From a virus: a DNA stretch of 39,252 nucleotides. This document shows positions 12,305-31,304 of the stretch, one piece after another. The position numbers were made by a program, and so were the translations under genes. Every line of letters begins with the position of its first letter. The first letter of the stretch is position 1. Location: UHGV virus genome UHGV-0390443; one strand, written 5' to 3'. The notes beneath the pieces were generated by a model. That model saw only the letters and a list, made by a program, of their open reading frames with translations, had not been told where the DNA came from and searched no databases.

Positions 12305-12570
12305 TTTACATCGCACTCCTCTTGTGCCATAGTAATCAGGCACTGGCAAAATCCAGTGCCGGGATTGGTCTCCCGGATTACTACAGAGGCACATATGCCG
12401 CATAAGCGGTTTTTTTATGTGTAAAGCGCACCTATTCTATGGTGGGCTGTGTGGGGGCACCGAAAGGTGCGCCGGGTTCCTTTGTAGCCGGTAAGACCAA
12501 CTCTGCACAGTTCACCACCATCTGATTGGTCTCAGCGGTGGTGATTAACCTAACTACAAAGGTGATCGCC

Positions 12571-13263
12571 ATGAATACCAAACCTTCCATCTTTTCCTTT
12601 GAGTCATCCTGCCAGATCCGTATGTTCATGATTGACGGAGAACCTTGGTTTGTCACCAAAGATGTGTGCAATGCTTTGAATATTGATGTTACACAAGCGA
12701 GAAAACTTGATAAAAAAGGCTGGAACAAAAAGGGGCTGTATTCAATACAGACCCCTGGTGGAATACAAGAACTATCCATCGTTTCAGAATCAGGTCTCTA
12801 CATCCTTATTCTGCGTTGCAAAGAGGCAATGACAGAGGGAACGAGAGCATTCAGATTTCTTGAATGGGTTACAGGTGAGGTTCTTCCTCAGATCCGCCGC
12901 ACCGGAAGTTACATTAAAAACTCGCTCCCGCAGGAAGAACGCATAAAGATGGTTGCCGACCAGGTAGCCAACGCCACGGCGTCAGCAGTAATGCAGGCGA
13001 TGAAGATAGAGAACAAAACCTACAGTGCCCCACTGAAGCCCGGCTACCGTAGCCTGATTCATTCGCCGTCTGGTGTTCTCGGCCTGACGGAGCACTCACT
13101 GCTGATGAATCTGCTGAACCAGTTACAGGAAGACGGGCATGATGTATCAGGCGCGGCGGCGGAGCTGACCACCATGTTCTGCTACATCGTCGGTGTGAGC
13201 AAATGCCTGCGTGATATCCAGACGCACGCGGAGTACATCAACGACAAGGCTGGGTTCTTCTGA
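12571..13263 (+). CDS. Antirepressor with Bro-N N-terminal domain and Ant/KilA-C-like C-terminal domain
   Basis: ATG 12571 with RBS AAAGGTGA; Bro-N signature SIFSFESSCQIRMFMIDGEPWFVTKDVCNALNI. Confidence 0.75.
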   Translation: MNTKPSIFSFESSCQIRMFMIDGEPWFVTKDVCNALNIDVTQARKLDKKGWNKKGLYSIQTPGGIQELSIVSESGLYILILRCKEAMTEGTRAFRFLEWVTGEVLPQIRRTGSYIKNSLPQEERIKMVADQVANATASAVMQAMKIENKTYSAPLKPGYRSLIHSPSGVLGLTEHSLLMNLLNQLQEDGHDVSGAAAELTTMFCYIVGVSKCLRDIQTHAEYINDKAGFF

Positions 13264-13370: not shown

Positions 13371-13580
13371 ATGGGATTTTGGTTCGCTCGTACAAAAACG
13401 AGGGATAATGCACCCAGCCCTCAGGCAAAAAATGCAGAAGTTCCGGCGTCAGCGCAGGTTAACAAGCGTGGTGGAGTATATATCTCATCACAGCAAATTT
13501 CTGAGCTTCCTGAGGTTAAGGAGATGCGTCGTCTCGCTGCTGCAATTGTTAAACAGGATCTTGCCACTGTAAGGAAGTAG
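13371..13580 (+). CDS. Small soluble hypothetical protein (69 aa), first gene of a two-gene moron operon
   Basis: ORF with strong RBS GAGGAGGAG; stop overlaps start region of the membrane protein gene. Confidence 0.55.
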   Translation: MGFWFARTKTRDNAPSPQAKNAEVPASAQVNKRGGVYISSQQISELPEVKEMRRLAAAIVKQDLATVRK

Positions 13581-14446
13581 TGTTGCTAGCTCTTCTAATT
13601 ATCCCAATCCTGGTTAGCGGTTATATTATGATAACCGCTAACCAGTATCATTATTTCCGTTTATACCGACACGAAGGCCAGCTTCTTTATATGAAAGTAG
13701 CGGCACTAGGTACATATTGCCTTGTTGCATCAGTAATAATTGCAGCCGCTATAAAATATAAATGGCCTGATTTTCACCTAGTTCACGATATGGTGGAAAC
13801 TTTTAATGTAACATCAAAACCAGAAACAGATAGAATTTACATGTGGCTGCTTCTTCTCTCAGCCACATCCATTTGCTTCTCTTTGTGTTATGTGTCTGTT
13901 GTGTGGGTGAAAGATTTTCTTCTTGGTTGTTTTTATAAACGTGATATTTACGAGCAAAAAACAGAGGCAATGAAGGCCAGAGTACTGCGAAAAACTTACT
14001 CGCAAGGTTCTTTAGACTTACTATTGCTTGATGCTATTGAATCGGATCCTAAACGACCAATGCTGATTACTTTATCATCAAACAAAGTGTATGTTGGAAT
14101 AATAAATGGTTCTGGTGAACCAACGGAAAATCAGGGTCCGCATCAGCACATATCTTTTGTTCCTTTAATGTCAGGATACAGGAACAAAGAAAACTTATCT
14201 GTCACATTCACTAATGCTTATCCAGGAGAAATACAGGTCAAGCGGACTGCAGCAATAAGAGGAATTAGCAGAAAGAAAGTGCCAGGACTTGAGATCATGG
14301 TGTCTATTGACGAAATAAGTTATATATCATGGTTTGATTTTGAAGTATATAAAGCAACAAATAACAAAGTAGAATCCAGGGGGCACGTTATTCGTGTTAC
14401 CAAAAATGGAAGAAATATATATCAAAGAAATAGCAAAAAAGAATAG
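13580..14446 (+). CDS. Membrane protein with about 3 N-terminal TM helices and a ~170-aa C-terminal soluble domain; function unknown
   Basis: 288-aa ORF, low GC; hydrophobic segments LLALLIIPILVSGYIMITA, VAALGTYCLVASVIIAAAI, IYMWLLLLSATSICFSLCYVSVVWV; start (GTG 13580 or TTG 13583) uncertain. Confidence 0.55.
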   Translation: MLLALLIIPILVSGYIMITANQYHYFRLYRHEGQLLYMKVAALGTYCLVASVIIAAAIKYKWPDFHLVHDMVETFNVTSKPETDRIYMWLLLLSATSICFSLCYVSVVWVKDFLLGCFYKRDIYEQKTEAMKARVLRKTYSQGSLDLLLLDAIESDPKRPMLITLSSNKVYVGIINGSGEPTENQGPHQHISFVPLMSGYRNKENLSVTFTNAYPGEIQVKRTAAIRGISRKKVPGLEIMVSIDEISYISWFDFEVYKATNNKVESRGHVIRVTKNGRNIYQRNSKKE

Positions 14447-14447
14447 C

Positions 14448-14472
14448 CCGCGCCGCGGGCTTTTTTGTGTCT
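14448..14472 (+). terminator. Rho-independent terminator after membrane protein gene
   Basis: GCCCGCG-CC-GCGGGC followed by TTTTTTGT. Confidence 0.75.
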
Positions 14473-14512
14473 GCGGACTCCCGCCCGGGCGGCGGTGGCA
14501 TTCGTTAAAAAC

Positions 14513-14531
14513 AAGGCCGCGAAAGCGGCCT
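14513..14531 (-). terminator. Putative terminator for the convergent minus-strand gene
   Basis: AGGCCGC-GAAA-GCGGCCT; minus-strand downstream TGTTTTTAAC. Confidence 0.5.
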
Positions 14532-14543
14532 GTGACATGTCAC
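14532..14543. repeat. 12-bp perfect palindrome GTGACATGTCAC (copy 1 of 3; others at 31882..31893 with one mismatch and 34147..34158)
   Basis: Exact string seen three times, with shared 14-bp context CGTGACATGTCACA in two copies. Confidence 0.6.
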
Positions 14544-14544
14544 G

Positions 14545-14994
14545 CTACTTGCGAAATCTTTCTTTACCCTTCCAGCCAGTAGATGTTAGTTCAGGATGAA
14601 TGGTTCCCAATATAAAGCCAACCATAGCGGAGCGAGGATCTTCTATTTTATCCGTTAATTCTTCGGCATAACTCACAGGCAACCAAGCAACAAGATCACC
14701 AATCCTCAGCTTTGGTCCTTTGCTGTAAGATGAATCGGCAATAACAAAAAATCCACCATCAGCTGAGCACACCTTCAGCATTGCCCTTTGTCTTCCAGAA
14801 TCCAGCAAAACTGGCTGTTCCCCACTGGGACCAGGTATGATGATGGCTGGCATTGGTTTATTGGCTGAAAGGCTTGTGTCAAGATACTTACACGCATACT
14901 CAAAAGCTGAAAAGTTATCCTTAAAGATAAGAGGTTGAATTTTATTGCTAACCTCCTTACCACCGATTAATCTGTTGATCATCTTCTTGAACAT
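14545..14994 (-). CDS. Hypothetical cytoplasmic protein (about 149 aa)
   Basis: ORF track 14545..15003; ATG 14994 preferred (RBS AGGTGA, spacing 5). Confidence 0.5.
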   Translation of the reverse strand: MFKKMINRLIGGKEVSNKIQPLIFKDNFSAFEYACKYLDTSLSANKPMPAIIIPGPSGEQPVLLDSGRQRAMLKVCSADGGFFVIADSSYSKGPKLRIGDLVAWLPVSYAEELTDKIEDPRSAMVGFILGTIHPELTSTGWKGKERFRK

Positions 14995-15006
14995 AAAGGT
15001 CACCTA

Positions 15007-15447
15007 ATGATTAAGCCGATGCACGCTATTACAGCTACCGTTTTGTTTATCCTACCAATTTTTTCGTTTGCAAACGACATATGTTTTAAGAATTTAATAA
15101 ATGAGGATATGTGTGCACATGCAAACAAAATTGCATCAGAAGCAGGAAAGTCACTTCCCATAAAATTGAATGATAATATGTCTATTGTTTCAATAAATGC
15201 AATACTAAACAAACTTTTAGTTGTAGCGCATCTTAATTACAACAACAGCTATTTATCAAAAGTTTATAATGGTGATGTAACCTTAGAAAATAAATTAAAG
15301 AGTGTAATGCGAAATTATTCAAAATCGAGCATTTGCTCCAACAGGCAAATAAAAGCATTTATTCACCTTGGCGGAGAGATTGAGTATAGGTATGTATTTA
15401 GTGATGGCAATATATTTGATACATACGCCATCACTAATTGTGAATAG
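15007..15447 (+). CDS. Hypothetical secreted protein with N-terminal signal peptide (about 146 aa, 4 Cys in mature part)
   Basis: MIKPMHAITATVLFILPIFSFA then NDICF...; very AT-rich codon usage; abuts the internal virion protein gene. Confidence 0.5.
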   Translation: MIKPMHAITATVLFILPIFSFANDICFKNLINEDMCAHANKIASEAGKSLPIKLNDNMSIVSINAILNKLLVVAHLNYNNSYLSKVYNGDVTLENKLKSVMRNYSKSSICSNRQIKAFIHLGGEIEYRYVFSDGNIFDTYAITNCE

Positions 15448-18400
15448 CTATTTCATCTGCTCTTCAACTTTATTTAGTAACGGTGATATCGCCCACAGGT
15501 TCTGAAAAGGTAGCATTTTACGGACCGCGTGGGTTTGCTGGCTGTCAAATTCTCCGTTAAGTACACCATTCGCAACCGTCGCGGCATCACCGCCAAGATC
15601 AAAGGTAGGACCAAGTAAAGCACCAATAGCATTACGACTCTGAAACCTTGATACCGGAGGCGCACCAAACATCGCGCCAAGACCAAACCTACCGCCGCTT
15701 ATGTTCTCAACGGTATTCAGCGGCTCAGAGAGCCAGCCAAGCATTCCGCCCCGGTCGATCCCCTCTTTCACAAGGTTATTCCAGCTGTAGTCGATATCGC
15801 GACCGCTTAACTTCTGTTTCATCATATAGACCATTGAGCCAAGCGCAATCGTGCCAAGCGCACCAAGATAGAATGCAGCATCGCCCTGCTGGATACCAGA
15901 TACTAGCACCCTGTTATGCTGTGCGAAGATAAACGTTTTGAACTGCGTGATCATCTTCCAGCCTTCTTTACTAAAAAACAGCGGTGTATCACCTACGCCA
16001 GGCGTTACAATCACTGAGTCTACATCTTTCAGCACTGCAGACTGGAAAATCTCTCTAGCGAAACGGTCATCCCACAGATGACTATGCCCGGTTAACAGCC
16101 CGTCCATATCCTCTCCGTGCTTCCCGAATTGCTCCCCGATTCGGCGCAGAACATCTTCATTGATGCCGACCTGTGCCATCTTCCGCATTTCACTTTTGGA
16201 GAGCGTGCCACCAGCAGAAACTTGGCGAGCCGCGTCAAGTATCCTCGACTGCACTATCATCCCGGACCATGATTTAAGTGCGCTGTTCCACTGATTCATC
16301 AGCGTCCAGTTACCGAATTTCTGCGTCATCCAGTTCAGACCTCGCTCAGCGGCGCTTCTCCGGCTATAGGGGTCAGTAAGATCCGCTATAGCCTTTGTAC
16401 GCGTAGACAGGACATAATCAAGCCCAACGGCCATTTCTCGCAAATCCCTGGTTGCAATTTTCACTGAGTCCATATTTTTAAGCATGCTTACCATTGGTCC
16501 GAGAGATTTTCTCAGGCCATGCTGCATCATCGGTCGCATCAGATCAGTTGCAGCGGAGACAGTCATTCCACCAAGCAAACGGAGGAAGTTAATATTCCTA
16601 GCAACTCGCCCGGCACGAACAAAGAAACTGCGTGGATCTTGAGGTGCACCGTAAGTACCAAGCAGTCGATCACGCATAGCCGTAATATCCCTAATATCAG
16701 CCTCCCGTTGCTTCTCAAGAACTGCACGTCGTTTAGGTGTTTTAGCCTCTTTTATTAGCCGGGTATATTCCTCACTAACCTGACGGATTTGCTCCCCCAT
16801 ATCTTTACGGCCAAACTGCGCAGTCAGCTCAATTTCTGGTGCCACCTGCCGGAGATAACTTTCCATAATGTAGTTAACATCTGATTCAAGAAAATCTTCT
16901 ATACGCTCATCAGGAATAAGCAGCGTTCTGCTTTTAGTGAAACCAGCCCGACCAACGAGTCTCTCTGGGACAATATCGGCTGGTACAAGCCCGGAAGGTG
17001 CGCCTATTATTTTATTCACGATCTCGTCAGCAGCGTCCTCTGCTTCCTCTCGGGATAGAGGCTCCATCTGCTTCAGTGCTCGTTCGCGGCTTGCATTCAG
17101 CCTTGTGGTTGAATTTGCCCGTTTTTGCAGTCGGCGAAGCTCAGAACGATATTTCCGTGGATTATCCAGCAACTCCATATGGCGCTGATAGACAGGAAGC
17201 TCACTCTTTGCCTGCGCTATATCATCAAGGCGTGTTTTAAGGTCAGAGCTTTCTTTCATCATTCTTGCCTGAAGTTTTTCTGATGAAGTCTCGGCCAACT
17301 CTTTTTCTATTCTTGTAAGACGCGCCTGTGTGTCAGTCTCCTGAGATATAAGCTTATTTCGTTTATCCAGTTCTTCCATGAGTAGAATTTTTTTACCAGA
17401 CCATTTCTCCGCTTCAGCGATTTCACTAGCGAGAGCATCAGCGCGCGGTGCCGATTCCTCTGCAGTTTTTAGCAATGAATTTATCCTTTCAATTCGCTGA
17501 CCTGCTTTGTCAGCACCTTTGGCACTAATCCCTTGTATCCAGTTGGCAATTCGCCCTCTGAATTCAGTGCGGTCGGAAAGTATCTTATCGAACTTATAAA
17601 TGCGGGGAAGATAACTTTTCGCCGTCACGACATCGATATCCTCAGGAAGGATCCCCAGTTCCTGCATACGGGCTTTTGTGGTCTCGAAAATGGGGCGGAT
17701 TCTGGCGGCTGCTTGTGAAACCTCAGGAATATCACTCTGATCACCACGGCGCATAGCCATGCCAACAGCTTCATTGAAATCAATAAAGCTCATCCTCTTC
17801 ACGCCGCGGGCGCTAACAGATTTGCTGTACTGCTGGTAAGCATCACGAGTGGCTTCCATCTGCTTATAAAGCATGGCGTCGTATTGCTTAATCTTAGTCT
17901 CGACTGCCGTAAACGTAGCCAACCCCTCATCATTTTTGGCGAAGAAATAGTTATTTTCGGCAAGCTGCTGGTTAATCTGACGGGAGACAAGAGATGGTGA
18001 TTGAGCCAAGCGGCCAGCAGGAGTGACACTCAACGTTTTGTTAGCAAGTCCAAGTCCAGCGAGCTGTTCCTGATCGAGTGTGGTATTGAAAACCTGAGCT
18101 GCACCAATGCTTTGAGGAGAATCCATACCTCGCAAATGATTACCTACTGAGTTAACCACTGCCTCGCGCGCGCTAGGTCCAGCAAGTAGCTGTGCACCAG
18201 CACCAAGGATCCCACCAACGAGAGCATCAACAACAACGTTCGATACGCTCTCCATCGGTGAGCGAGCTTCCTGAGTGGCCTGTAATGCGGCTTCTGATAC
18301 TCCCCCACCAGCAGCATTCGCTAGGGCAAAACGCCCTGCCGTCTCAGCAATACTTCCTCCACGCGCTACCGCCCCTACAGGGATGAACATTGCAGCCACA

Positions 18401-18837
18401 TTAACCGGGTCTATCATTCCCATTGCTAAGCTTGAAATAGTACCAGCACCCCCCATTTCAGATAGATATTCTCTATCTGTTCTTTGCTTATCGATTCGAT
18501 GTTTAATTGCCATTGTTTCTTCATGCGAACCGGAGTTGATAAACGAATCTGCAAAATCTTCATAGCCTTTAATATCTGCTGCATCGTTATCAAATGGGTT
18601 ATATCCTTCAACCCTGTCAAACTGACTGAAAGGAGCACTGGCAATAAAGCTACCCAGCGTGTTATCTATACGAAATGCTGCTTGTCTAGACCTTTGAACG
18701 CGTTGATCACTGGTAAATGGGTTCACAGCAGAAAGCAAAGAAGGTGTTTCCATATAGAAATTACTGTCATCAGGTGCTGCTATTTGCTGAATATCCTCGC
18801 CAAGCAACTCTTTAGGATCCTGTTCATATATCGGCAT
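15448..18837 (-). CDS. Large internal virion / ejection protein (T7 gp16-like position)
   Basis: 1129 aa, coiled-coil-rich, last gene of T7-like tail-tube/core block. Confidence 0.7.
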   Translation of the reverse strand: MPIYEQDPKELLGEDIQQIAAPDDSNFYMETPSLLSAVNPFTSDQRVQRSRQAAFRIDNTLGSFIASAPFSQFDRVEGYNPFDNDAADIKGYEDFADSFINSGSHEETMAIKHRIDKQRTDREYLSEMGGAGTISSLAMGMIDPVNVAAMFIPVGAVARGGSIAETAGRFALANAAGGGVSEAALQATQEARSPMESVSNVVVDALVGGILGAGAQLLAGPSAREAVVNSVGNHLRGMDSPQSIGAAQVFNTTLDQEQLAGLGLANKTLSVTPAGRLAQSPSLVSRQINQQLAENNYFFAKNDEGLATFTAVETKIKQYDAMLYKQMEATRDAYQQYSKSVSARGVKRMSFIDFNEAVGMAMRRGDQSDIPEVSQAAARIRPIFETTKARMQELGILPEDIDVVTAKSYLPRIYKFDKILSDRTEFRGRIANWIQGISAKGADKAGQRIERINSLLKTAEESAPRADALASEIAEAEKWSGKKILLMEELDKRNKLISQETDTQARLTRIEKELAETSSEKLQARMMKESSDLKTRLDDIAQAKSELPVYQRHMELLDNPRKYRSELRRLQKRANSTTRLNASRERALKQMEPLSREEAEDAADEIVNKIIGAPSGLVPADIVPERLVGRAGFTKSRTLLIPDERIEDFLESDVNYIMESYLRQVAPEIELTAQFGRKDMGEQIRQVSEEYTRLIKEAKTPKRRAVLEKQREADIRDITAMRDRLLGTYGAPQDPRSFFVRAGRVARNINFLRLLGGMTVSAATDLMRPMMQHGLRKSLGPMVSMLKNMDSVKIATRDLREMAVGLDYVLSTRTKAIADLTDPYSRRSAAERGLNWMTQKFGNWTLMNQWNSALKSWSGMIVQSRILDAARQVSAGGTLSKSEMRKMAQVGINEDVLRRIGEQFGKHGEDMDGLLTGHSHLWDDRFAREIFQSAVLKDVDSVIVTPGVGDTPLFFSKEGWKMITQFKTFIFAQHNRVLVSGIQQGDAAFYLGALGTIALGSMVYMMKQKLSGRDIDYSWNNLVKEGIDRGGMLGWLSEPLNTVENISGGRFGLGAMFGAPPVSRFQSRNAIGALLGPTFDLGGDAATVANGVLNGEFDSQQTHAVRKMLPFQNLWAISPLLNKVEEQMK

Positions 18838-21584
18838 TATTTGCCCCCTGCGTATATATTGCTCGGAAGGTAATTGGCTGAACCATAACCGAATGGTTTG
18901 GTCAGATCTGGAGGAGTATATCCATCTTTATTGCTGAACTGCGGCAGCGGATTGCCTTCTCTCCGCACTCTAGCCTCATCAACACGCTGTTGCTGTAACT
19001 GAATGGTTTGCCTGTACATTGGAGATGTCAGCTGATCCGGCTTGAAACGAACAGGGAGACCATTTTCTCCAATATAATTTCTCGGTTCTATCGCTCCGTT
19101 TGCGTCAGGCTGTAAAACCATAACAGCATAACTCCTATCCCTTGCCGTAAGGCCATCAGAAACAAGTATTAAGTCCGTATCACTGCGAGGACCGCCAAAG
19201 GATTTTGATTTAAGCTCGCGTTTTTCCTGCTCCCACTGCCCCTGTATCCAGTTACCAGCACCATTATTTACTCCGTACAATGCCTCAGGTGCATACTTCA
19301 TAACCTCTGCTTTGCCATTAACCGTAGAAACTCCCCAGGTGGTTCTGATCATGGCATTGGTCATTTTCTCAGCCTGTTCTGCATCGCCACCTGTCTGTAC
19401 AAAGTTAGCATCGTAAATTGTCTGGTAATCTCGCTGATAGGCCGCATTTGATTTTCCTGGATCGGTAATATCCGGAGACCACGAACCAAAGGAAGTCAGA
19501 CTGCTGGCGTTATTTTGTGCAGCAGTTGCCCTCGCCGCGACATATTTTTTGTCTCGCATGGCAGTGGAAAGCATCTGTTTCATTCGGTCATCCTGTTGGA
19601 ACACCTGGCTGTAAGCCATATCAACAGCCTTATCCTCCGGCACGCCAGCGCGGGAATAATCGTAAACCTTGCCGTAAAATGCCATCGTACTTTTATCAAG
19701 TGTTGCCGCTGCCGCCGGATTATTATCGAATAACTGACCGTAGAATTTTGCCATCGGGACAACCAGCGCAGGATCTCTTGATGTTGCTCCACTGTTAAGC
19801 ATTGTTTTAACCTGAGTTGGTATCATGCCGCTTTTAGTTGTGACGGTGACCAGTGTATTGATGCTCTGCGGATCAGATATGGAAAACGAAGGCGCGATAT
19901 CCTGCGCGAAATAACGGTCTACCGCTGCCTGATTGTTTTTGTCGTTCGGGTCCAGCGGGAAGTTATTTTGCATTGAAGACACGAACCTGTTTCTTCCCTG
20001 CTGAATCTCCCACTCCCTATCCATCTCTTTAAATTTGGCCTGCATTTTCTCCCAGCGTTGCTGGTTAGCAGCAAATCCAGGAGCGTTTGGATCCTGTGGA
20101 CGTAAACGTTCAAGAATGTCTTGTCGTCCTTCTGGAGTGAGGTCTTTAGCGGCACCAATGACACCTCCATATTGTATCTGCGCCTGCATATCCTTCCACT
20201 TCATAGCGCCAATGCGCGGACCATTGGCCCGGATAAAATCGTCCTCAGAAGGTAACTTCTCAGGTTTCAATCCTTCATCAAGGGCTGAATATGCATCTTT
20301 AACTACGGTGCTAAGCTGGTCCGCATACTGCTGGCGGTACTGATTTCTCAGCTCATTAGCCTGCCTCAATGCCTGTATTTGCATTTGAGGGCTCATAGCA
20401 TCAAATGCCGCATTGCCCGTATAACGCTTAGGTGAATCAAGGTTAGTTAGACCAAGGGCTGCCGAGATACCAGTTTCAAGCTGTTCGGTGCTATAAGGCA
20501 TACTGCCATTTTCGTGTTTAATAATCCCAGCACATAAAGCAGCTAGTGTCTTTGGGTTAGAGATATCAAGCTGATCATTCTCCCCAACACCAAGCTCACC
20601 ACACAATGCCCTAATATAAGCATCAGTATTATTACCATCACTAGCCGGAGCATAGCGATTAACAATCTCGCTAACGGTGTCATAGCCTTGACGCTGGTAA
20701 GACAACATATTTTTACCCAACGCGCGGATTCCATGCTCAGGGGTAGCAAACGTTGCAAAACGTCCATCGCTACCGATCTGACCTTCCCACGGGTTAGATT
20801 TGCTCGCTTCAATATTACCAGGGTTATTATTACGTAAACCACGAGCATCCAATGAATTACCATGTGATATTGCACGACTCACACCACCAAGATCCCCTGG
20901 CTCTCCATTAACCTGAAGAAACTCGTTGTATTTTTGAGCGATATTTCCTATCCATGCTTGCTGCCCCATTTCTTCCTTGAGCTGAGTTTTCTGCTGAACA
21001 CGCCACTCATCAGGAAGCCCATGCGCATCAGCGTATTGATCAATAGATTCAAATCGCTGCTTGGCTAAATCGACAAATGCTTGGTTATCGCTATATAGCC
21101 CCGCAGACTGAGTGACAGCCAATGCATTTCCTGACAAATACGTTTGATCTTGGAATTGCTGAAACTGCCCAACTTCATATCGACGTGCCTGATTGTAATA
21201 AGACTGCATAGACTGCTGGAGTTGAAAGGATAATTTATTCCTTTCCTCACTTTCAGGGATTGAGCCTAATAATGCCTGAGCCCTTTCCTGCATATTTTTC
21301 ATAACAGCGTCACTCTGACCAAGAGCGTTTTTACCCTGTTTAGAAATCAGCCCATTTTCAGGGTTGTTAATCTGGTCATCTGCAAATTGGTTAAATTGCA
21401 GTAACGCCTCCTGGGCCATAGCAACATTCGCTTTCTGCCTGGCTTCACCATATGCCACCGCATACTGATCTGCGACATTCGCCAGCACCTGACCTGCTTG
21501 AGGAACATCGAAGGTCTGAAAACCACCGGTTTGCACACCACGACTTTGCACCTGGCGTCCGGATGTAGTAGGAACAACAGGCAT
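18837..21584 (-). CDS. Internal virion / ejection protein (T7 gp15-like position) with conserved RNNNPGNI motif region
   Basis: 915 aa; segment ARGLRNNNPGNIEASKSNPWEGQIGSDGRFATFATPEHGIRALGKNM; start overlaps stop of upstream gene. Confidence 0.7.
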   Translation of the reverse strand: MPVVPTTSGRQVQSRGVQTGGFQTFDVPQAGQVLANVADQYAVAYGEARQKANVAMAQEALLQFNQFADDQINNPENGLISKQGKNALGQSDAVMKNMQERAQALLGSIPESEERNKLSFQLQQSMQSYYNQARRYEVGQFQQFQDQTYLSGNALAVTQSAGLYSDNQAFVDLAKQRFESIDQYADAHGLPDEWRVQQKTQLKEEMGQQAWIGNIAQKYNEFLQVNGEPGDLGGVSRAISHGNSLDARGLRNNNPGNIEASKSNPWEGQIGSDGRFATFATPEHGIRALGKNMLSYQRQGYDTVSEIVNRYAPASDGNNTDAYIRALCGELGVGENDQLDISNPKTLAALCAGIIKHENGSMPYSTEQLETGISAALGLTNLDSPKRYTGNAAFDAMSPQMQIQALRQANELRNQYRQQYADQLSTVVKDAYSALDEGLKPEKLPSEDDFIRANGPRIGAMKWKDMQAQIQYGGVIGAAKDLTPEGRQDILERLRPQDPNAPGFAANQQRWEKMQAKFKEMDREWEIQQGRNRFVSSMQNNFPLDPNDKNNQAAVDRYFAQDIAPSFSISDPQSINTLVTVTTKSGMIPTQVKTMLNSGATSRDPALVVPMAKFYGQLFDNNPAAAATLDKSTMAFYGKVYDYSRAGVPEDKAVDMAYSQVFQQDDRMKQMLSTAMRDKKYVAARATAAQNNASSLTSFGSWSPDITDPGKSNAAYQRDYQTIYDANFVQTGGDAEQAEKMTNAMIRTTWGVSTVNGKAEVMKYAPEALYGVNNGAGNWIQGQWEQEKRELKSKSFGGPRSDTDLILVSDGLTARDRSYAVMVLQPDANGAIEPRNYIGENGLPVRFKPDQLTSPMYRQTIQLQQQRVDEARVRREGNPLPQFSNKDGYTPPDLTKPFGYGSANYLPSNIYAGGK

Positions 21585-22159
21585 CAGTAACCTCCTATTT
21601 TGAATCGGGAGTCAGAATTCATAAAACCTGAGTTAGATAACATTGGCGTCCCACCACCAGATGTACTTCCTTTAGAGAACGGACTCCACGTCCCACCAAA
21701 CATCTGGTACGCACCGTATGCCTTCAGAGGCGCAGTGAGCAATGTTGTTGCTGCTCCCACATTCCCCTGTTTACGGGCTGAACTGGCTTCTGCTTTATAG
21801 TTGGCAGCCTGAACCTGATAACCGTAAGCCTCGCGTTGCGCGTTATTCACCGTCGTCAGCGAATCAAGAGCGCCAAACTGGGCAGTGTCGCCAAATATAT
21901 CCAGCGCGTTACCTGTAGATAAATCAGCGCCGGTAGCCCCCATTGTCGCCGCCTGTGTACCAAGCCGCTGTCGGGTCTCTCTGCGCCGTTGCTCAGCTTC
22001 AGCGTTACCTCTGTTTATTGCATCATTTGCCTGAGCTGTGGCTATATCTGCGTTCGCTTCTGCAACCTTCGAGGCATACTTTCCCTGTTGGTACTGGGTG
22101 TATGCCTGAATGCCACTCATGACGAGCATTGCGCCACCAGCAATAACCGGATCGCACAT
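21584..22159 (-). CDS. Putative internal virion protein (gp14-like position)
   Basis: 191 aa, N-terminal hydrophobic segment, Ala/Gln-rich; synteny only. Confidence 0.5.
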   Translation of the reverse strand: MCDPVIAGGAMLVMSGIQAYTQYQQGKYASKVAEANADIATAQANDAINRGNAEAEQRRRETRQRLGTQAATMGATGADLSTGNALDIFGDTAQFGALDSLTTVNNAQREAYGYQVQAANYKAEASSARKQGNVGAATTLLTAPLKAYGAYQMFGGTWSPFSKGSTSGGGTPMLSNSGFMNSDSRFKIGGY

Positions 22160-31227: not shown

Positions 31228-31304
31228 GTGGCATTAGCTCAGTTGGACAGAGCAACCGCCTTCTAAGCGGTTGGTCGCAGGTTCGAATCCTGCATGCCAC
31301 GCCA
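31228..31304 (+). tRNA. tRNA-Arg (anticodon UCU), with encoded CCA
   Basis: Manually folded cloverleaf: acceptor GTGGCAT/ATGCCAC, D-stem GCTC/GAGC, anticodon stem ACCGC/GCGGT with loop CTTCTAA, T-stem GCAGG/CCTGC with TTCGAAT loop. Confidence 0.85.

What the first reader, a model, noticed from the sequence alone, without database searches (positions are those of the whole stretch)
14545..15447. Head-to-head pair of uncharacterised genes with start codons about 12 bp apart (cytoplasmic 149-aa protein and secreted 146-aa protein)
The minus-strand gene (ATG 14994, RBS AGGTGA) and the plus-strand gene (ATG 15007) diverge from an almost non-existent intergenic region, so each promoter must lie inside the other coding sequence or the genes rely on read-through. 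The plus-strand product has a clear signal peptide and four cysteines. The region is markedly AT-rich relative to flanking structural genes, consistent with a recent moron acquisition. Could be a lysogenic-conversion factor or defence/anti-defence pair.
Basis: partly seen in the sequence, partly recalled or inferred. Interest (0 to 1): 0.6.

Follow-up and report, generated by a model that had tools for sequence, protein, structure and literature searches.

The report
Prophage exclusion-type gene beside DNA-injection genes
Two real but unnamed prophage genes sit back-to-back 12 bases apart; they are not an obligate pair, and the exported one occupies the slot where phage P22 keeps its superinfection-exclusion gene, so it probably blocks DNA injection by rival phages.

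Summary
ORF-A (14545-14994, minus strand, 149 aa) and ORF-B (15007-15447, plus strand, 146 aa) diverge from a 12-nt spacer that carries both ribosome-binding sites. Both are under purifying selection (dN/dS 0.06-0.24), and the geometry persists in relatives whose synonymous sites are saturated.

Longer homologues (263-292 aa) add a copy of the ejection protein's N-terminal ~150 residues and a membrane anchor. One of them follows an Mnt/Arc-like repressor gene.

ORF-A belongs to an uncurated domain family of more than 300 clusters and lies upstream of the conserved late-operon terminator. A and B each occur without the other, so they are not an obligate pair. ORF-B is AT-rich in every lineage, so it is not a recent arrival.

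My best reading is that ORF-B is a periplasmic superinfection-exclusion factor (confidence about 0.45). ORF-A's function is unresolved.

The parts
14545..14994 (-). ORF-A. A 149-aa cytoplasmic protein (WP_000473936.1, phrog_9944) and a member of an uncurated domain family.
   Evidence: dN/dS is 0.055-0.20. A profile search finds 307 clusters at 50% identity. There is no Pfam, NCBIfam or PADLOC match. A hydropathy scan of the long family members found membrane segments only in their N-terminal extensions. ORF-A itself was not scanned; its N-terminus shows no hydrophobic stretch by eye.
14995..15006 (.). A 12-nt divergent spacer, AAAGGTCACCTA, that holds both Shine-Dalgarno sequences (AAGG for B; AGGTGA on the minus strand for A).
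   Evidence: The spacer and its flanks are conserved in L056, L057, L027, L054 and L018.
15007..15447 (+). ORF-B. A 146-aa exported protein (WP_000595048.1, phrog_8772). The signal peptide is approximately 15007-15072; the mature domain has an AspS/PA3611-like fold and four invariant cysteines.
15448..18837 (-). The 1129-aa internal virion (ejection) protein and last gene of the late structural operon. Its stop codon abuts ORF-B's stop codon. Its N-terminal residues 66-119 are copied in long ORF-B homologues.
   Evidence: phrog_342 'internal virion protein', E=1e-234. It lies next to a T7_gp14-family gene at 21584-22159. BLASTP to the L028 long-B extension gives E=3e-10.
14514..14531 (-). A terminator-like hairpin on the minus strand just after ORF-A's stop codon. 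It lies in a stretch that is 96.7% identical to a phiV10 stretch containing that record's annotated terminator after the late genes p20 and p21.
   Evidence: In L008/L009, ORF-A sits between the p21-like gene and a GC-rich hairpin followed by a T-run that I read by eye; I did not scan or align it.
14445..14461 (.). A bidirectional terminator-like hairpin that closes the neighbouring 288-aa gene and insulates ORF-B from plus-strand read-through.
14945..14973 (+). A weak candidate promoter for ORF-B inside ORF-A's 5' codons: TTGCTA, 17 nt, TAATCT (7 of 12 matches). It falls below the scan threshold and is listed only as a candidate.
   Evidence: Read by eye. It is conserved, but that stretch also encodes conserved ORF-A residues.
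12340..13263 (+). Context: an immI-like module with isrK sRNA (12340-12416), C4 antisense RNA (12435-12522) and a BRO-N antirepressor-type gene (12526-13263).
   Evidence: Rfam gathering-score matches of 74.7 and 78.6 bits. Pfam Bro-N E=2e-13, plus a sub-threshold P22_AR_N match (E=0.0044, 17.6 bits against a cut-off of 30.7).

Best explanation
These are two independent accessory genes in the variable immI-like region of an epsilon15/phiV10-like prophage, between the DNA-ejection genes and the tailspike gene.

ORF-B is exported to the periplasm. There it folds into a disulfide-stabilised AspS/PA3611-type alpha/beta domain. I infer that it is expressed from the prophage and acts as a superinfection-exclusion factor. 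In this model it interferes with the trans-envelope DNA conduit that incoming related podophages build from their gp14/gp15/gp16-like ejection proteins. It would then be the functional analogue of P22 SieA, whose slot and orientation it shares.

Long-form relatives add a decoy copy of the ejection protein's N-terminal module and a membrane anchor. This suggests a dominant-negative or competitive mode of action. The short E. coli form would act through the pilotin-like domain alone, plausibly by clamping a helical segment of a conduit protein.

ORF-A is a separate cytoplasmic protein from a widespread uncharacterised domain family. It lies upstream of the late-operon terminator, so it is probably transcribed by read-through of the late operon across antisense ORF-B. 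Late transcription would then switch ORF-A on and oppose ORF-B expression.

Shown here: gene reality, export signal, fold, synteny, the decoy fusions and the independence of A and B. Inferred: expression timing, the target and exclusion itself.
For: - Slot and orientation. ORF-B, or its substitute B', lies convergent on the last ejection-protein gene. The distance runs from a 4-8 nt overlap to a 46-nt gap in 17 of 18 loci. P22 sieA is convergent 22 bp after ejection gene 16 and is followed by mnt/arc/ant and the tailspike. The window likewise has isrK, C4 RNA and a BRO-N antirepressor before the tailspike-position gene.
- Decoy fusions. P0171-P0174 (290-292 aa, four clusters) and P0177 (263 aa, 66% identical to ORF-B) have a signal peptide, the B domain, a copy of the ejection protein's N-terminus and a C-terminal hydrophobic helix ending in basic residues. 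BLASTP gives E=4e-17 to the adjacent 982-aa protein and E=3e-10 to residues 66-119 of the window's 1129-aa protein. The alignment runs from the MPVY N-terminus through the hydrophobic segment.
- Lysogeny-type expression. In L071 the long form starts 11 nt after a co-directional 77-aa Arc/Mnt-like gene (Pfam Arc E=3e-12) that has a palindrome-bearing promoter region.
- Periplasmic location. The signal peptide and four cysteines are conserved. The closest folds are the lipoprotein pilotin AspS and PA3611, which carries a signal sequence for the periplasm.
- Conflict-gene evolution. ORF-B diverges faster than ORF-A. In L018 and L054 the mature domain is swapped for B' directly after a nearly identical signal peptide.
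- Precedent. P22 SieA blocks injection through the ejection proteins gp16 and gp20 (PMC10883804).
- ORF-A and the late operon. The terminator-bearing stretch is shared with phiV10, and no intervening minus-strand terminator-like site is found.
Against: - There are no expression or phenotype data.
- ORF-B has no sequence similarity to SieA. The E. coli form lacks the decoy and the membrane anchor, so the argument from long forms is by homology only.
- No convincing promoter for ORF-B exists in the window. Promoter-like hits do not exceed shuffled controls.
- ORF-B has no terminator of its own.
- The fold match points to secretin pilotins, which allows a host target.
- Position-equivalence with sieA is analogy between different phage groups.
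Confidence: 0.45

Rival explanations
1. ORF-B is a lysogenic-conversion factor aimed at the host rather than at phages. As a soluble, non-lipidated pilotin mimic it would bind the S-domain of a host secretin (T2SS GspD-beta, or a type IV pilus or filamentous-phage secretin). That would alter secretion, virulence or piliation.
Against: There is no sequence-level relationship to AspS. The gene is tied to the ejection-protein gene, not to any secretin. The long forms fuse it to an ejection-protein module, not to anything secretin-related. Homologues occur in prophages of Salmonella, Proteus, Morganella and Providencia. From my own knowledge, not checked here, AspS-type T2SS is not a general feature of those hosts.
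Confidence: 0.12
2. ORF-A and ORF-B form one functional two-gene system, such as a defence/anti-defence pair, a toxin-immunity pair or a regulator-effector pair. The overlapping divergent control region would then couple their expression.
For: The 12-nt head-to-head junction is conserved across diverged E. coli, Klebsiella-type and Cedecea loci. All 14 complete E. coli genomes that carry the locus have both genes. Some ORF-A-domain relatives are fused to Zeta-toxin-like kinases.
Against: Each gene is found without the other in several independent lineages. ORF-A also pairs with the unrelated or very distant B'. The two products sit in different compartments. There are no PADLOC matches. The conserved junction is also explained by coding constraint, since it encodes the ORF-A N-terminus and the ORF-B signal peptide.
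Confidence: 0.1
3. ORF-B serves the phage's own lytic cycle. It would be a periplasmic helper made during infection, for example to protect or organise envelope events at lysis or to prevent progeny from re-adsorbing and ejecting into dying cells. It would not be a prophage-expressed exclusion protein.
For: The gene is embedded in the late region and has no recognisable promoter or terminator in the window. It is tightly linked to the virion genes in all lineages.
Against: ORF-B is on the strand opposite the late operon, so late transcription runs antisense to it. In L071 it is co-directional with, and 11 nt from, an Mnt/Arc-like repressor gene. In Providencia it has its own upstream intergenic region and a hairpin downstream.
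Confidence: 0.13
4. These are two unrelated morons with other, unguessed roles. On this reading the sieA-like position and the decoy fusions are by-products of recombination in a hot-spot and carry no functional meaning.
For: The slot to the left of the terminator is highly variable: the 288-aa gene here, DUF4760, YafO-like toxins or DUF2335 elsewhere. Phage EC.W1-9 carries a different 283-aa gene in the place of A and B.
Against: The long-form extension is diverged from the adjacent ejection gene (36% identity) yet conserved between two B lineages. It is present in at least five 90%-identity clusters, which indicates selection rather than a recent recombination scar.
Confidence: 0.2

Closest known systems
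P22 SieA (superinfection exclusion A)
   Same: A small prophage gene placed immediately after the last ejection-protein gene and convergent on it, inside an immI-type antirepressor region upstream of the tailspike gene. SieA blocks DNA injection through the ejection proteins gp16 and gp20 (PMC10883804). Like SieA types, which are under 30% identical to one another, ORF-B homologues are highly divergent.
   Different: There is no sequence similarity. SieA is an integral inner-membrane protein, whereas the window's ORF-B is a soluble exported domain with two probable disulfides. Only the long homologues are membrane-anchored, and they carry an ejection-protein copy that SieA lacks. The phage lineage also differs: epsilon15/phiV10-like with T7-gp14-type core proteins, against P22-like.
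AspS (GspS-beta, YghG) T2SS pilotin and P. aeruginosa PA3611
   Different: Identity is 16% and no profile-level match exists. ORF-B is not a lipoprotein and is not linked to a secretin gene. It is phage-encoded, lacks the C-terminal helix alpha4 and has an extra N-terminal cysteine pair.
T4 Spackle (Sp)
   Same: From my own knowledge: a small exported periplasmic phage protein that excludes superinfecting phage by binding a component of the incoming injection apparatus, the gp5 lysozyme.
   Different: The fold is unrelated (Sp is helical), the phage is lytic, and the target and gene context differ. Nothing was tested here.
Classical prophage morons
   Same: A low-GC insert between conserved phage modules, with variable occupancy among related prophages.
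   Different: In the window ORF-B has no recognisable promoter or terminator of its own and is embedded antisense between the last late gene and the late terminator. It is an old resident of its slot, not a sporadic insert.

Membership tests
AspS-type T2SS pilotin | Alpha/beta fold: a 5-stranded sheet flanked by helices (alpha1-beta1-3-alpha2-alpha3-beta4-5-alpha4) | tested here: met
AspS-type T2SS pilotin | N-terminal lipobox (outer-membrane lipoprotein) | tested here: not met
   The sequence reads ...FSFA|NDIC. The residues before the first Cys are D and I, which do not form a lipobox.
AspS-type T2SS pilotin | Sequence-level family membership | tested here: not met
   There is no Pfam hit at E<=0.1 other than noise. 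A profile search against PDB sequences finds no AspS or PA3611.
AspS-type T2SS pilotin | Binds the secretin S-domain; genetic association with a T2SS | not testable with these tools
   The gene lies in a prophage next to ejection-protein genes, and no secretin gene is in the window.
PA3611-like periplasmic proteins | Signal peptide without lipobox, same fold with an extra helix after beta3, conserved disulfide | tested here: inconclusive
P22 SieA-type superinfection exclusion | Gene convergent on and adjacent to the last ejection-protein gene, in an immI-type region | tested here: met
   Compare (P22) (window). The position is conserved in 17 of 18 related loci.
P22 SieA-type superinfection exclusion | Sequence homology to SieA; integral inner-membrane protein | tested here: not met
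   BLASTP gives E=13. The window's ORF-B has no hydrophobic segment after the signal peptide. Only long homologues have a C-terminal anchor.
P22 SieA-type superinfection exclusion | Expressed from the prophage; blocks DNA injection; escape mutations in ejection proteins | not testable with these tools
   The evidence is indirect only: the operon with an Mnt/Arc-like gene in L071 and the ejection-protein decoy fusions.
Two-gene defence or toxin-antitoxin pair | Obligate co-occurrence of the two genes | tested here: not met
   A occurs alone in L008, L009, L019, L066 and L058. B occurs alone in L005-7, L028-32 and L071-73. A pairs with B' in L018, L054, L055 and L070.
Two-gene defence or toxin-antitoxin pair | Match to a known defence or TA family | tested here: not met
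   PADLOC, NCBIfam and Pfam give no matches for either protein.
Moron (autonomous prophage transcription unit) | Own promoter and terminator, and atypical base composition | tested here: inconclusive
   The composition criterion is met (GC 0.315 against 0.484). No promoter above the shuffle background and no plus-strand terminator are found in the window. The Providencia homologue has its own upstream region and a downstream hairpin.

The most novel reading that the evidence does not exclude
ORF-B defines a previously undescribed class of periplasmic superinfection-exclusion proteins in epsilon15/phiV10-like prophages. On this reading, a pilotin-fold domain poisons the trans-envelope DNA conduit of incoming phages. 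In long forms this domain is tethered to a decoy copy of the ejection protein's N-terminal membrane-insertion module. The gene's antisense embedding between the last late gene and the late terminator would make late transcription a built-in switch: the exclusion gene turns off and ORF-A turns on when the prophage goes lytic.
Probability: 0.3. Interest if true: 0.7.

Novelty: new variant of a known kind. Interest (0 to 1): 0.5.

Why it matters
If ORF-B blocks DNA delivery, it would be a second, structurally unrelated answer to the problem P22 SieA solves. It acts in the periplasm, and in its long forms it appears to work by molecular mimicry of the very protein it opposes. That would give a direct handle on how podovirus ejection proteins assemble across the envelope, because it points to the N-terminal ~150 residues as an interaction or insertion module. 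It would also help predict cross-immunity among E. coli, Salmonella and Proteus-group prophages, which matters for phage therapy. Finally, it gives the AspS/PA3611 fold a context outside secretion systems. Separately, ORF-A flags an uncurated domain family of more than 300 clusters that deserves a name.

Tried and rejected
- Family searches. Pfam, NCBIfam and PADLOC scans of both proteins gave no real hits. The Ntox35, small_PFL1563 and DUF7190 matches fall far below their cut-offs.
- PDB sequence searches. Profile searches with ORF-A, ORF-B and a broad ORF-A alignment found nothing.
- Structure libraries. The BFVD viral library gave no significant match for ORF-B, and afdb50 was unavailable.
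- Promoters. Promoter-like sites do not exceed shuffled controls. The best minus-strand site (15410-15383) coincides with conserved GGEIEYRY codons and recurs in L071, where no ORF-A exists, so I do not count it as evidence.
- B versus B'. hhalign gave probability 56%, driven largely by the signal peptide, so this is inconclusive.
- ORF-A fusion partners. Pfam scans of partners and of 145 family members found only Zeta_toxin/AAA_33 (2 members), zinc ribbons and CpXC.
- ORF-A contexts. Genome contexts of distant ORF-A relatives in Alphaproteobacteria were heterogeneous and showed no recurring neighbour.
- Failed scans. Two attempts to scan genome contigs with broad ORF-A alignments failed for lack of a conserved stretch.
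- Literature. A search for the two WP accessions found nothing.
- Providencia extension. The short C-terminal tail of the Providencia homologue is not significantly similar to its ejection protein.
Full report

Yes. On the minus strand an ORF runs from 15003 (GTG) or 14994 (ATG) down to 14545. The ATG start gives 149 aa, is preceded by AGGTGA at 5 nt, and is the start RefSeq uses (WP_000473936.1). On the plus strand ATG 15007 opens a 146-aa ORF that ends at 15447 (WP_000595048.1). The 12-nt spacer AAAGGTCACCTA carries a Shine-Dalgarno sequence for each strand.

ORF-B starts with a typical export signal (MIKPMHAITATVLFILPIFSFA|ND) and has four cysteines. GC content is 0.315 for ORF-B and 0.422 for ORF-A, against 0.484 for the window.

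Both ORFs are genuine genes. Between diverged copies, dN/dS is 0.055 (window vs L018) and 0.20 (L004 vs L008) for ORF-A. For ORF-B it is 0.235 (window vs L027) and 0.20 (L005 vs L029). Each matches a PHROG of unknown function end to end (phrog_9944 and phrog_8772).

The head-to-head geometry recurs in relatives whose synonymous sites are saturated. The spacer is 12 nt in L027, L054, L056 and L057, 13 nt in L018, 19 nt in the Cedecea locus L004 and 23 nt in L055.

**2. Where are we?**

The window is an epsilon15/phiV10-like prophage of E. coli. The minus strand carries a long late operon that ends with three genes:
- a T7_gp14-family core protein (21584-22159, Pfam E=4e-8);
- a 915-aa protein;
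- a 1129-aa 'internal virion protein' (phrog_342, E=1e-234) at 15448-18837.

By analogy with T7 gp14/15/16 these are the proteins ejected to build the DNA conduit. Leftwards come, in order:
- ORF-B and ORF-A;
- a terminator-like hairpin (14514-14531, minus strand) and a bidirectional hairpin (14445-14461);
- a variable gene (288 aa here);
- a BRO-N antirepressor-type gene (12526-13263), preceded by isrK sRNA and C4 antisense RNA (Rfam gathering-score matches);
- an 846-aa ORF in the tailspike position, followed by the holin and endolysin genes.

The locus is rare. It is present in 14 of 5426 complete E. coli genomes, always with both genes at 98.9% identity or more, and in no isolated phage genome of the INPHARED set.

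**3. ORF-B**

Close homologues are few, but a profile search finds 28 clusters. The named ones are from Klebsiella, Providencia, Morganella, Proteus, Yersinia, Salmonella and Cedecea, and identity falls as low as 27%. C26, C36, C110, C145 and the motifs NLIxEDMC and LGGE are invariant or nearly so.

AlphaFold2 gives a confident model: pLDDT is 80 overall and above 90 from residue 40, with the signal peptide region low. The topology is helix, three strands, short helix, two helices, two strands.

The AspS paper describes this fold, a conserved disulfide between helix alpha2 and the C-terminal region, and PA3611 as a non-lipoprotein with a signal sequence for the periplasm and an extra helix after beta3 (PMC3542185). 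ORF-B resembles PA3611 in all three respects. The equivalence of C110-C145 to that disulfide is my inference.

At sequence level there is no relationship, and ORF-B has no lipobox. It shares the fold but is not a member of the pilotin family.

**4. The position of ORF-B is the most telling feature**

In 17 of 18 independent loci examined, ORF-B or the alternative protein B' (section 6) lies convergent on the 3' end of the last ejection-protein gene. The distance runs from a 4-8 nt overlap to a 46-nt gap. The exception is L030, with 304 nt and a small ORF in between.

The annotated P22 genome shows the same arrangement. Ejection genes 7, 20 and 16 are followed, 22 bp later and on the opposite strand, by sieA. 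Then come mnt, arc, sar RNA and ant, and then tailspike gene 9.

P22 SieA is a prophage-expressed protein that blocks DNA injection, and its escape mutations map to ejection proteins gp16 and gp20 (PMC10883804). ORF-B is not homologous to SieA. It occupies the equivalent slot in an equivalent immI-like region.

**5. Long forms link ORF-B to the ejection protein**

In L028 the ORF-B homologue is 290 aa. Its C-terminal extension matches the N-terminal ~104 residues of the adjacent 982-aa ejection protein (BLASTP E=4e-17, 36% identity). It also matches residues 66-119 of the window's 1129-aa protein (E=3e-10, 48% identity).

The same architecture recurs in four 90%-identity clusters of 290-292 aa (P0171-P0174). 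It also occurs in P0177 (263 aa), whose B domain is 66% identical to the window's ORF-B.

Aligned with five ejection-protein N-termini, the extension covers three elements:
- the region from the MPVY...P start;
- the motif GYNPF...GYE..AD.FI.S.SPQET.AIK.RID;
- a hydrophobic helix where the ejection proteins have their first Gly/Ala-rich hydrophobic segment, ending in basic residues (KKH, RKYKH).

The predicted topology is therefore a periplasmic B domain, then a periplasmic decoy, then an inner-membrane anchor. The extension is well diverged from the neighbouring gene yet conserved between two B lineages, so it is maintained by selection and is not a fresh recombination scar.

In L071 the long form starts 11 nt after a co-directional 77-aa Arc/Mnt-like ribbon-helix-helix gene (Pfam Arc E=3e-12). 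That gene has a palindrome and a promoter-like site upstream. This arrangement suggests prophage-state expression, as for P22 mnt.

**6. Signs of an arms-race gene**

ORF-B diverges faster than ORF-A. Between the window and Cedecea, ORF-B is 28% identical and ORF-A 57%.

In L018, L054, L055 and L070 the slot holds a different 143-147-aa secreted protein, B'. It has one Cys pair and ends in ...C-D. In L018 and L054 the nucleotide sequence is nearly identical to the window through ORF-A's 5' end, the spacer and the signal peptide. It then diverges abruptly at the cleavage site. Whether B' is a very distant homologue is unresolved (hhalign probability 56%).

ORF-B's low GC is found in all nine loci measured. 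It is a family trait, not evidence of recent arrival.

**7. ORF-A**

The close family is small (13 clusters, Enterobacterales). A profile search of 1.8 billion representatives finds 307 clusters, 171 of them at E<1e-10. Most members are stand-alone proteins of about 150 aa. Many others carry the domain after one to five N-terminal membrane helices. A few are fused to Zeta_toxin/AAA_33 kinase domains, zinc ribbons or CpXC, and one has a tandem duplication.

No Pfam, NCBIfam, PADLOC or PDB sequence match covers the domain. Family-wide conserved positions are F24, C35, Q69, G80-G81-F82, L96, G99-D100, V102, W104, D119, R121 and G126. My structural model was poor and fold search was uninformative.

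The contexts are mixed:
- In phiV10-type prophages (L008, L009, L019) ORF-A sits alone between the p21-like 46-aa gene and a hairpin plus T-run that I read by eye as the terminator.
- In phiV10 itself, p20 and p21 are followed directly by an annotated terminator.
- The 61-nt stretch around the terminator-like hairpin after ORF-A in the window is 96.7% identical to the phiV10 stretch that contains that annotated terminator.
- No minus-strand terminator-like site lies between the 1129-aa gene and ORF-A.

ORF-A is therefore inside the late transcription unit, and read-through across antisense ORF-B is its most likely source of mRNA.

Against a simple 'late gene' label, a relative in Acinetobacter phage MD-2021a lies 18 nt downstream of the cI-like repressor on the same strand. 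Distant relatives in Alphaproteobacteria sit in unrelated chromosomal neighbourhoods. I cannot assign ORF-A a function. A conflict-related role is a guess at about 0.3.

**8. Are A and B a system?**

No obligate link exists.
- A occurs without B in L008, L009, L019, L066 and L058, and in many bacteria.
- B occurs without A in L005-7, L028-32 and L071-73.
- A occurs with B' in four loci.

The conserved junction encodes ORF-A's conserved N-terminus and the ORF-B signal peptide. Its conservation therefore needs no regulatory explanation, though one is not excluded.

**9. How it most likely works**

Shown here:
- ORF-B is a conserved, exported, cysteine-stabilised AspS/PA3611-fold protein.
- Its gene is fixed at the sieA-equivalent position.
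- Its long relatives carry a membrane-anchored copy of the ejection protein's N-terminal module.
- One relative is in an operon with an Mnt/Arc-like repressor.

Inferred:
- ORF-B is made in the lysogen.
- It meets the ejection proteins of superinfecting relatives in the periplasm and prevents a productive conduit from forming.
- Long forms act by competing for the site the ejection-protein N-terminus normally occupies. The short form acts by binding a conduit segment in the groove that pilotins use for the secretin S-domain helix.
- During induction, late transcription runs antisense through ORF-B into ORF-A. This would oppose ORF-B expression and produce ORF-A.

Confidence in the exclusion model is about 0.45. 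The rivals are a host-secretin target, a coupled A-B system, a lytic-cycle role and unrelated morons; they are scored separately.

**10. Novelty and verdict**

Both genes are already annotated as hypothetical proteins and grouped in PHROGs, and nothing is published on them. New here are:
- the fold assignment;
- the sieA-slot synteny;
- the decoy fusions;
- the B/B' cassette exchange behind a shared signal peptide;
- the size of the ORF-A domain family.

If the model is right, this is a new variant of a known kind: prophage superinfection exclusion aimed at DNA delivery. Interest is 0.5.

Noticed in passing
window 12340-12522 (+), with 12526-13263 (+): isrK Hfq-binding sRNA (74.7 bits) and C4 antisense RNA (78.6 bits) lie directly upstream of a BRO-N antirepressor-type gene. 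Together they form a P1/P7/Gifsy-type immI antirepressor control module inside this podovirus-like prophage.
   Followed up: partly
window 13610-13645 (+): A perfect 15-bp-stem hairpin (CTGGTTAGCGGTTAT-ATTATG-ATAACCGCTAACCAG) spans the ATG (13628) that PGAP uses for the neighbouring membrane-protein gene. It might occlude translation initiation or act as an operator. It was reported as terminator-like, but it sits at a gene start.
   Followed up: no
window 13580-14446 (+): A 288-aa protein (phrog_3630, unknown function) with hydrophobic N-terminal segments by eye fills the variable slot to the left of the terminators. Other strains carry DUF4760 plus a 53-aa gene, a YafO-family toxin or DUF2335 there. 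A relative recurs in L028. The slot looks like a cargo hot-spot.
   Followed up: partly
L018 3544-3987, L054 2545-2988, L055 2546-2977, L070 2524-2961: An alternative secreted protein, B' (143-147 aa, one Cys pair, ends ...SKSDCD), replaces ORF-B in the same slot. In L018 and L054 the signal peptide is nearly identical to ORF-B's, and the break falls exactly at the cleavage site.
   Followed up: partly
protein P0189 (295 aa, NCBI source): A distant ORF-B relative carries a lipoprotein-type signal (…LVGC) and what looks like two tandem B-like domains. It hints that lipidated, pilotin-like members of this family exist outside phages.
   Followed up: no
proteins P0049 and P0052; L058 4896-5387; L045 4974-5399: The ORF-A domain is fused, at either end, to Zeta-toxin/AAA_33-type kinases. 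It also sits 18 nt downstream of a cI-like repressor in Acinetobacter phage MD-2021a. In Maricaulis it lies among genes that, by N-terminal sequence only, look like acyl-CoA dehydrogenase and enoyl-CoA hydratase genes.
   Followed up: partly
window 14486-14546: This 61-75-nt terminator-bearing stretch is shared at 91-100% identity by 16 of the 18 phage records that match the region, including phiV10, TL-2011b, the O157 typing phages and HEMP4. Those records otherwise lack ORF-A and ORF-B. It looks like a conserved module boundary where cargo is exchanged.
   Followed up: partly
window 31228-31304 (+): A tRNA-Arg (anticodon TCT) gene lies on the plus strand inside the otherwise minus-strand structural region of the prophage.
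   Followed up: no
L002 5069-5920 (phage EC.W1-9): This isolated phage has 99% identical flanks but carries a single 283-aa minus-strand gene of unknown function in the place of ORF-A plus ORF-B.
   Followed up: no
L032 3662-4000 (-) and 3983-4420 (+): In a Yersinia-type prophage, ORF-B's start overlaps by 18 nt the start of a divergent 112-aa membrane-protein gene. This is an even tighter head-to-head arrangement than in the window.
   Followed up: no
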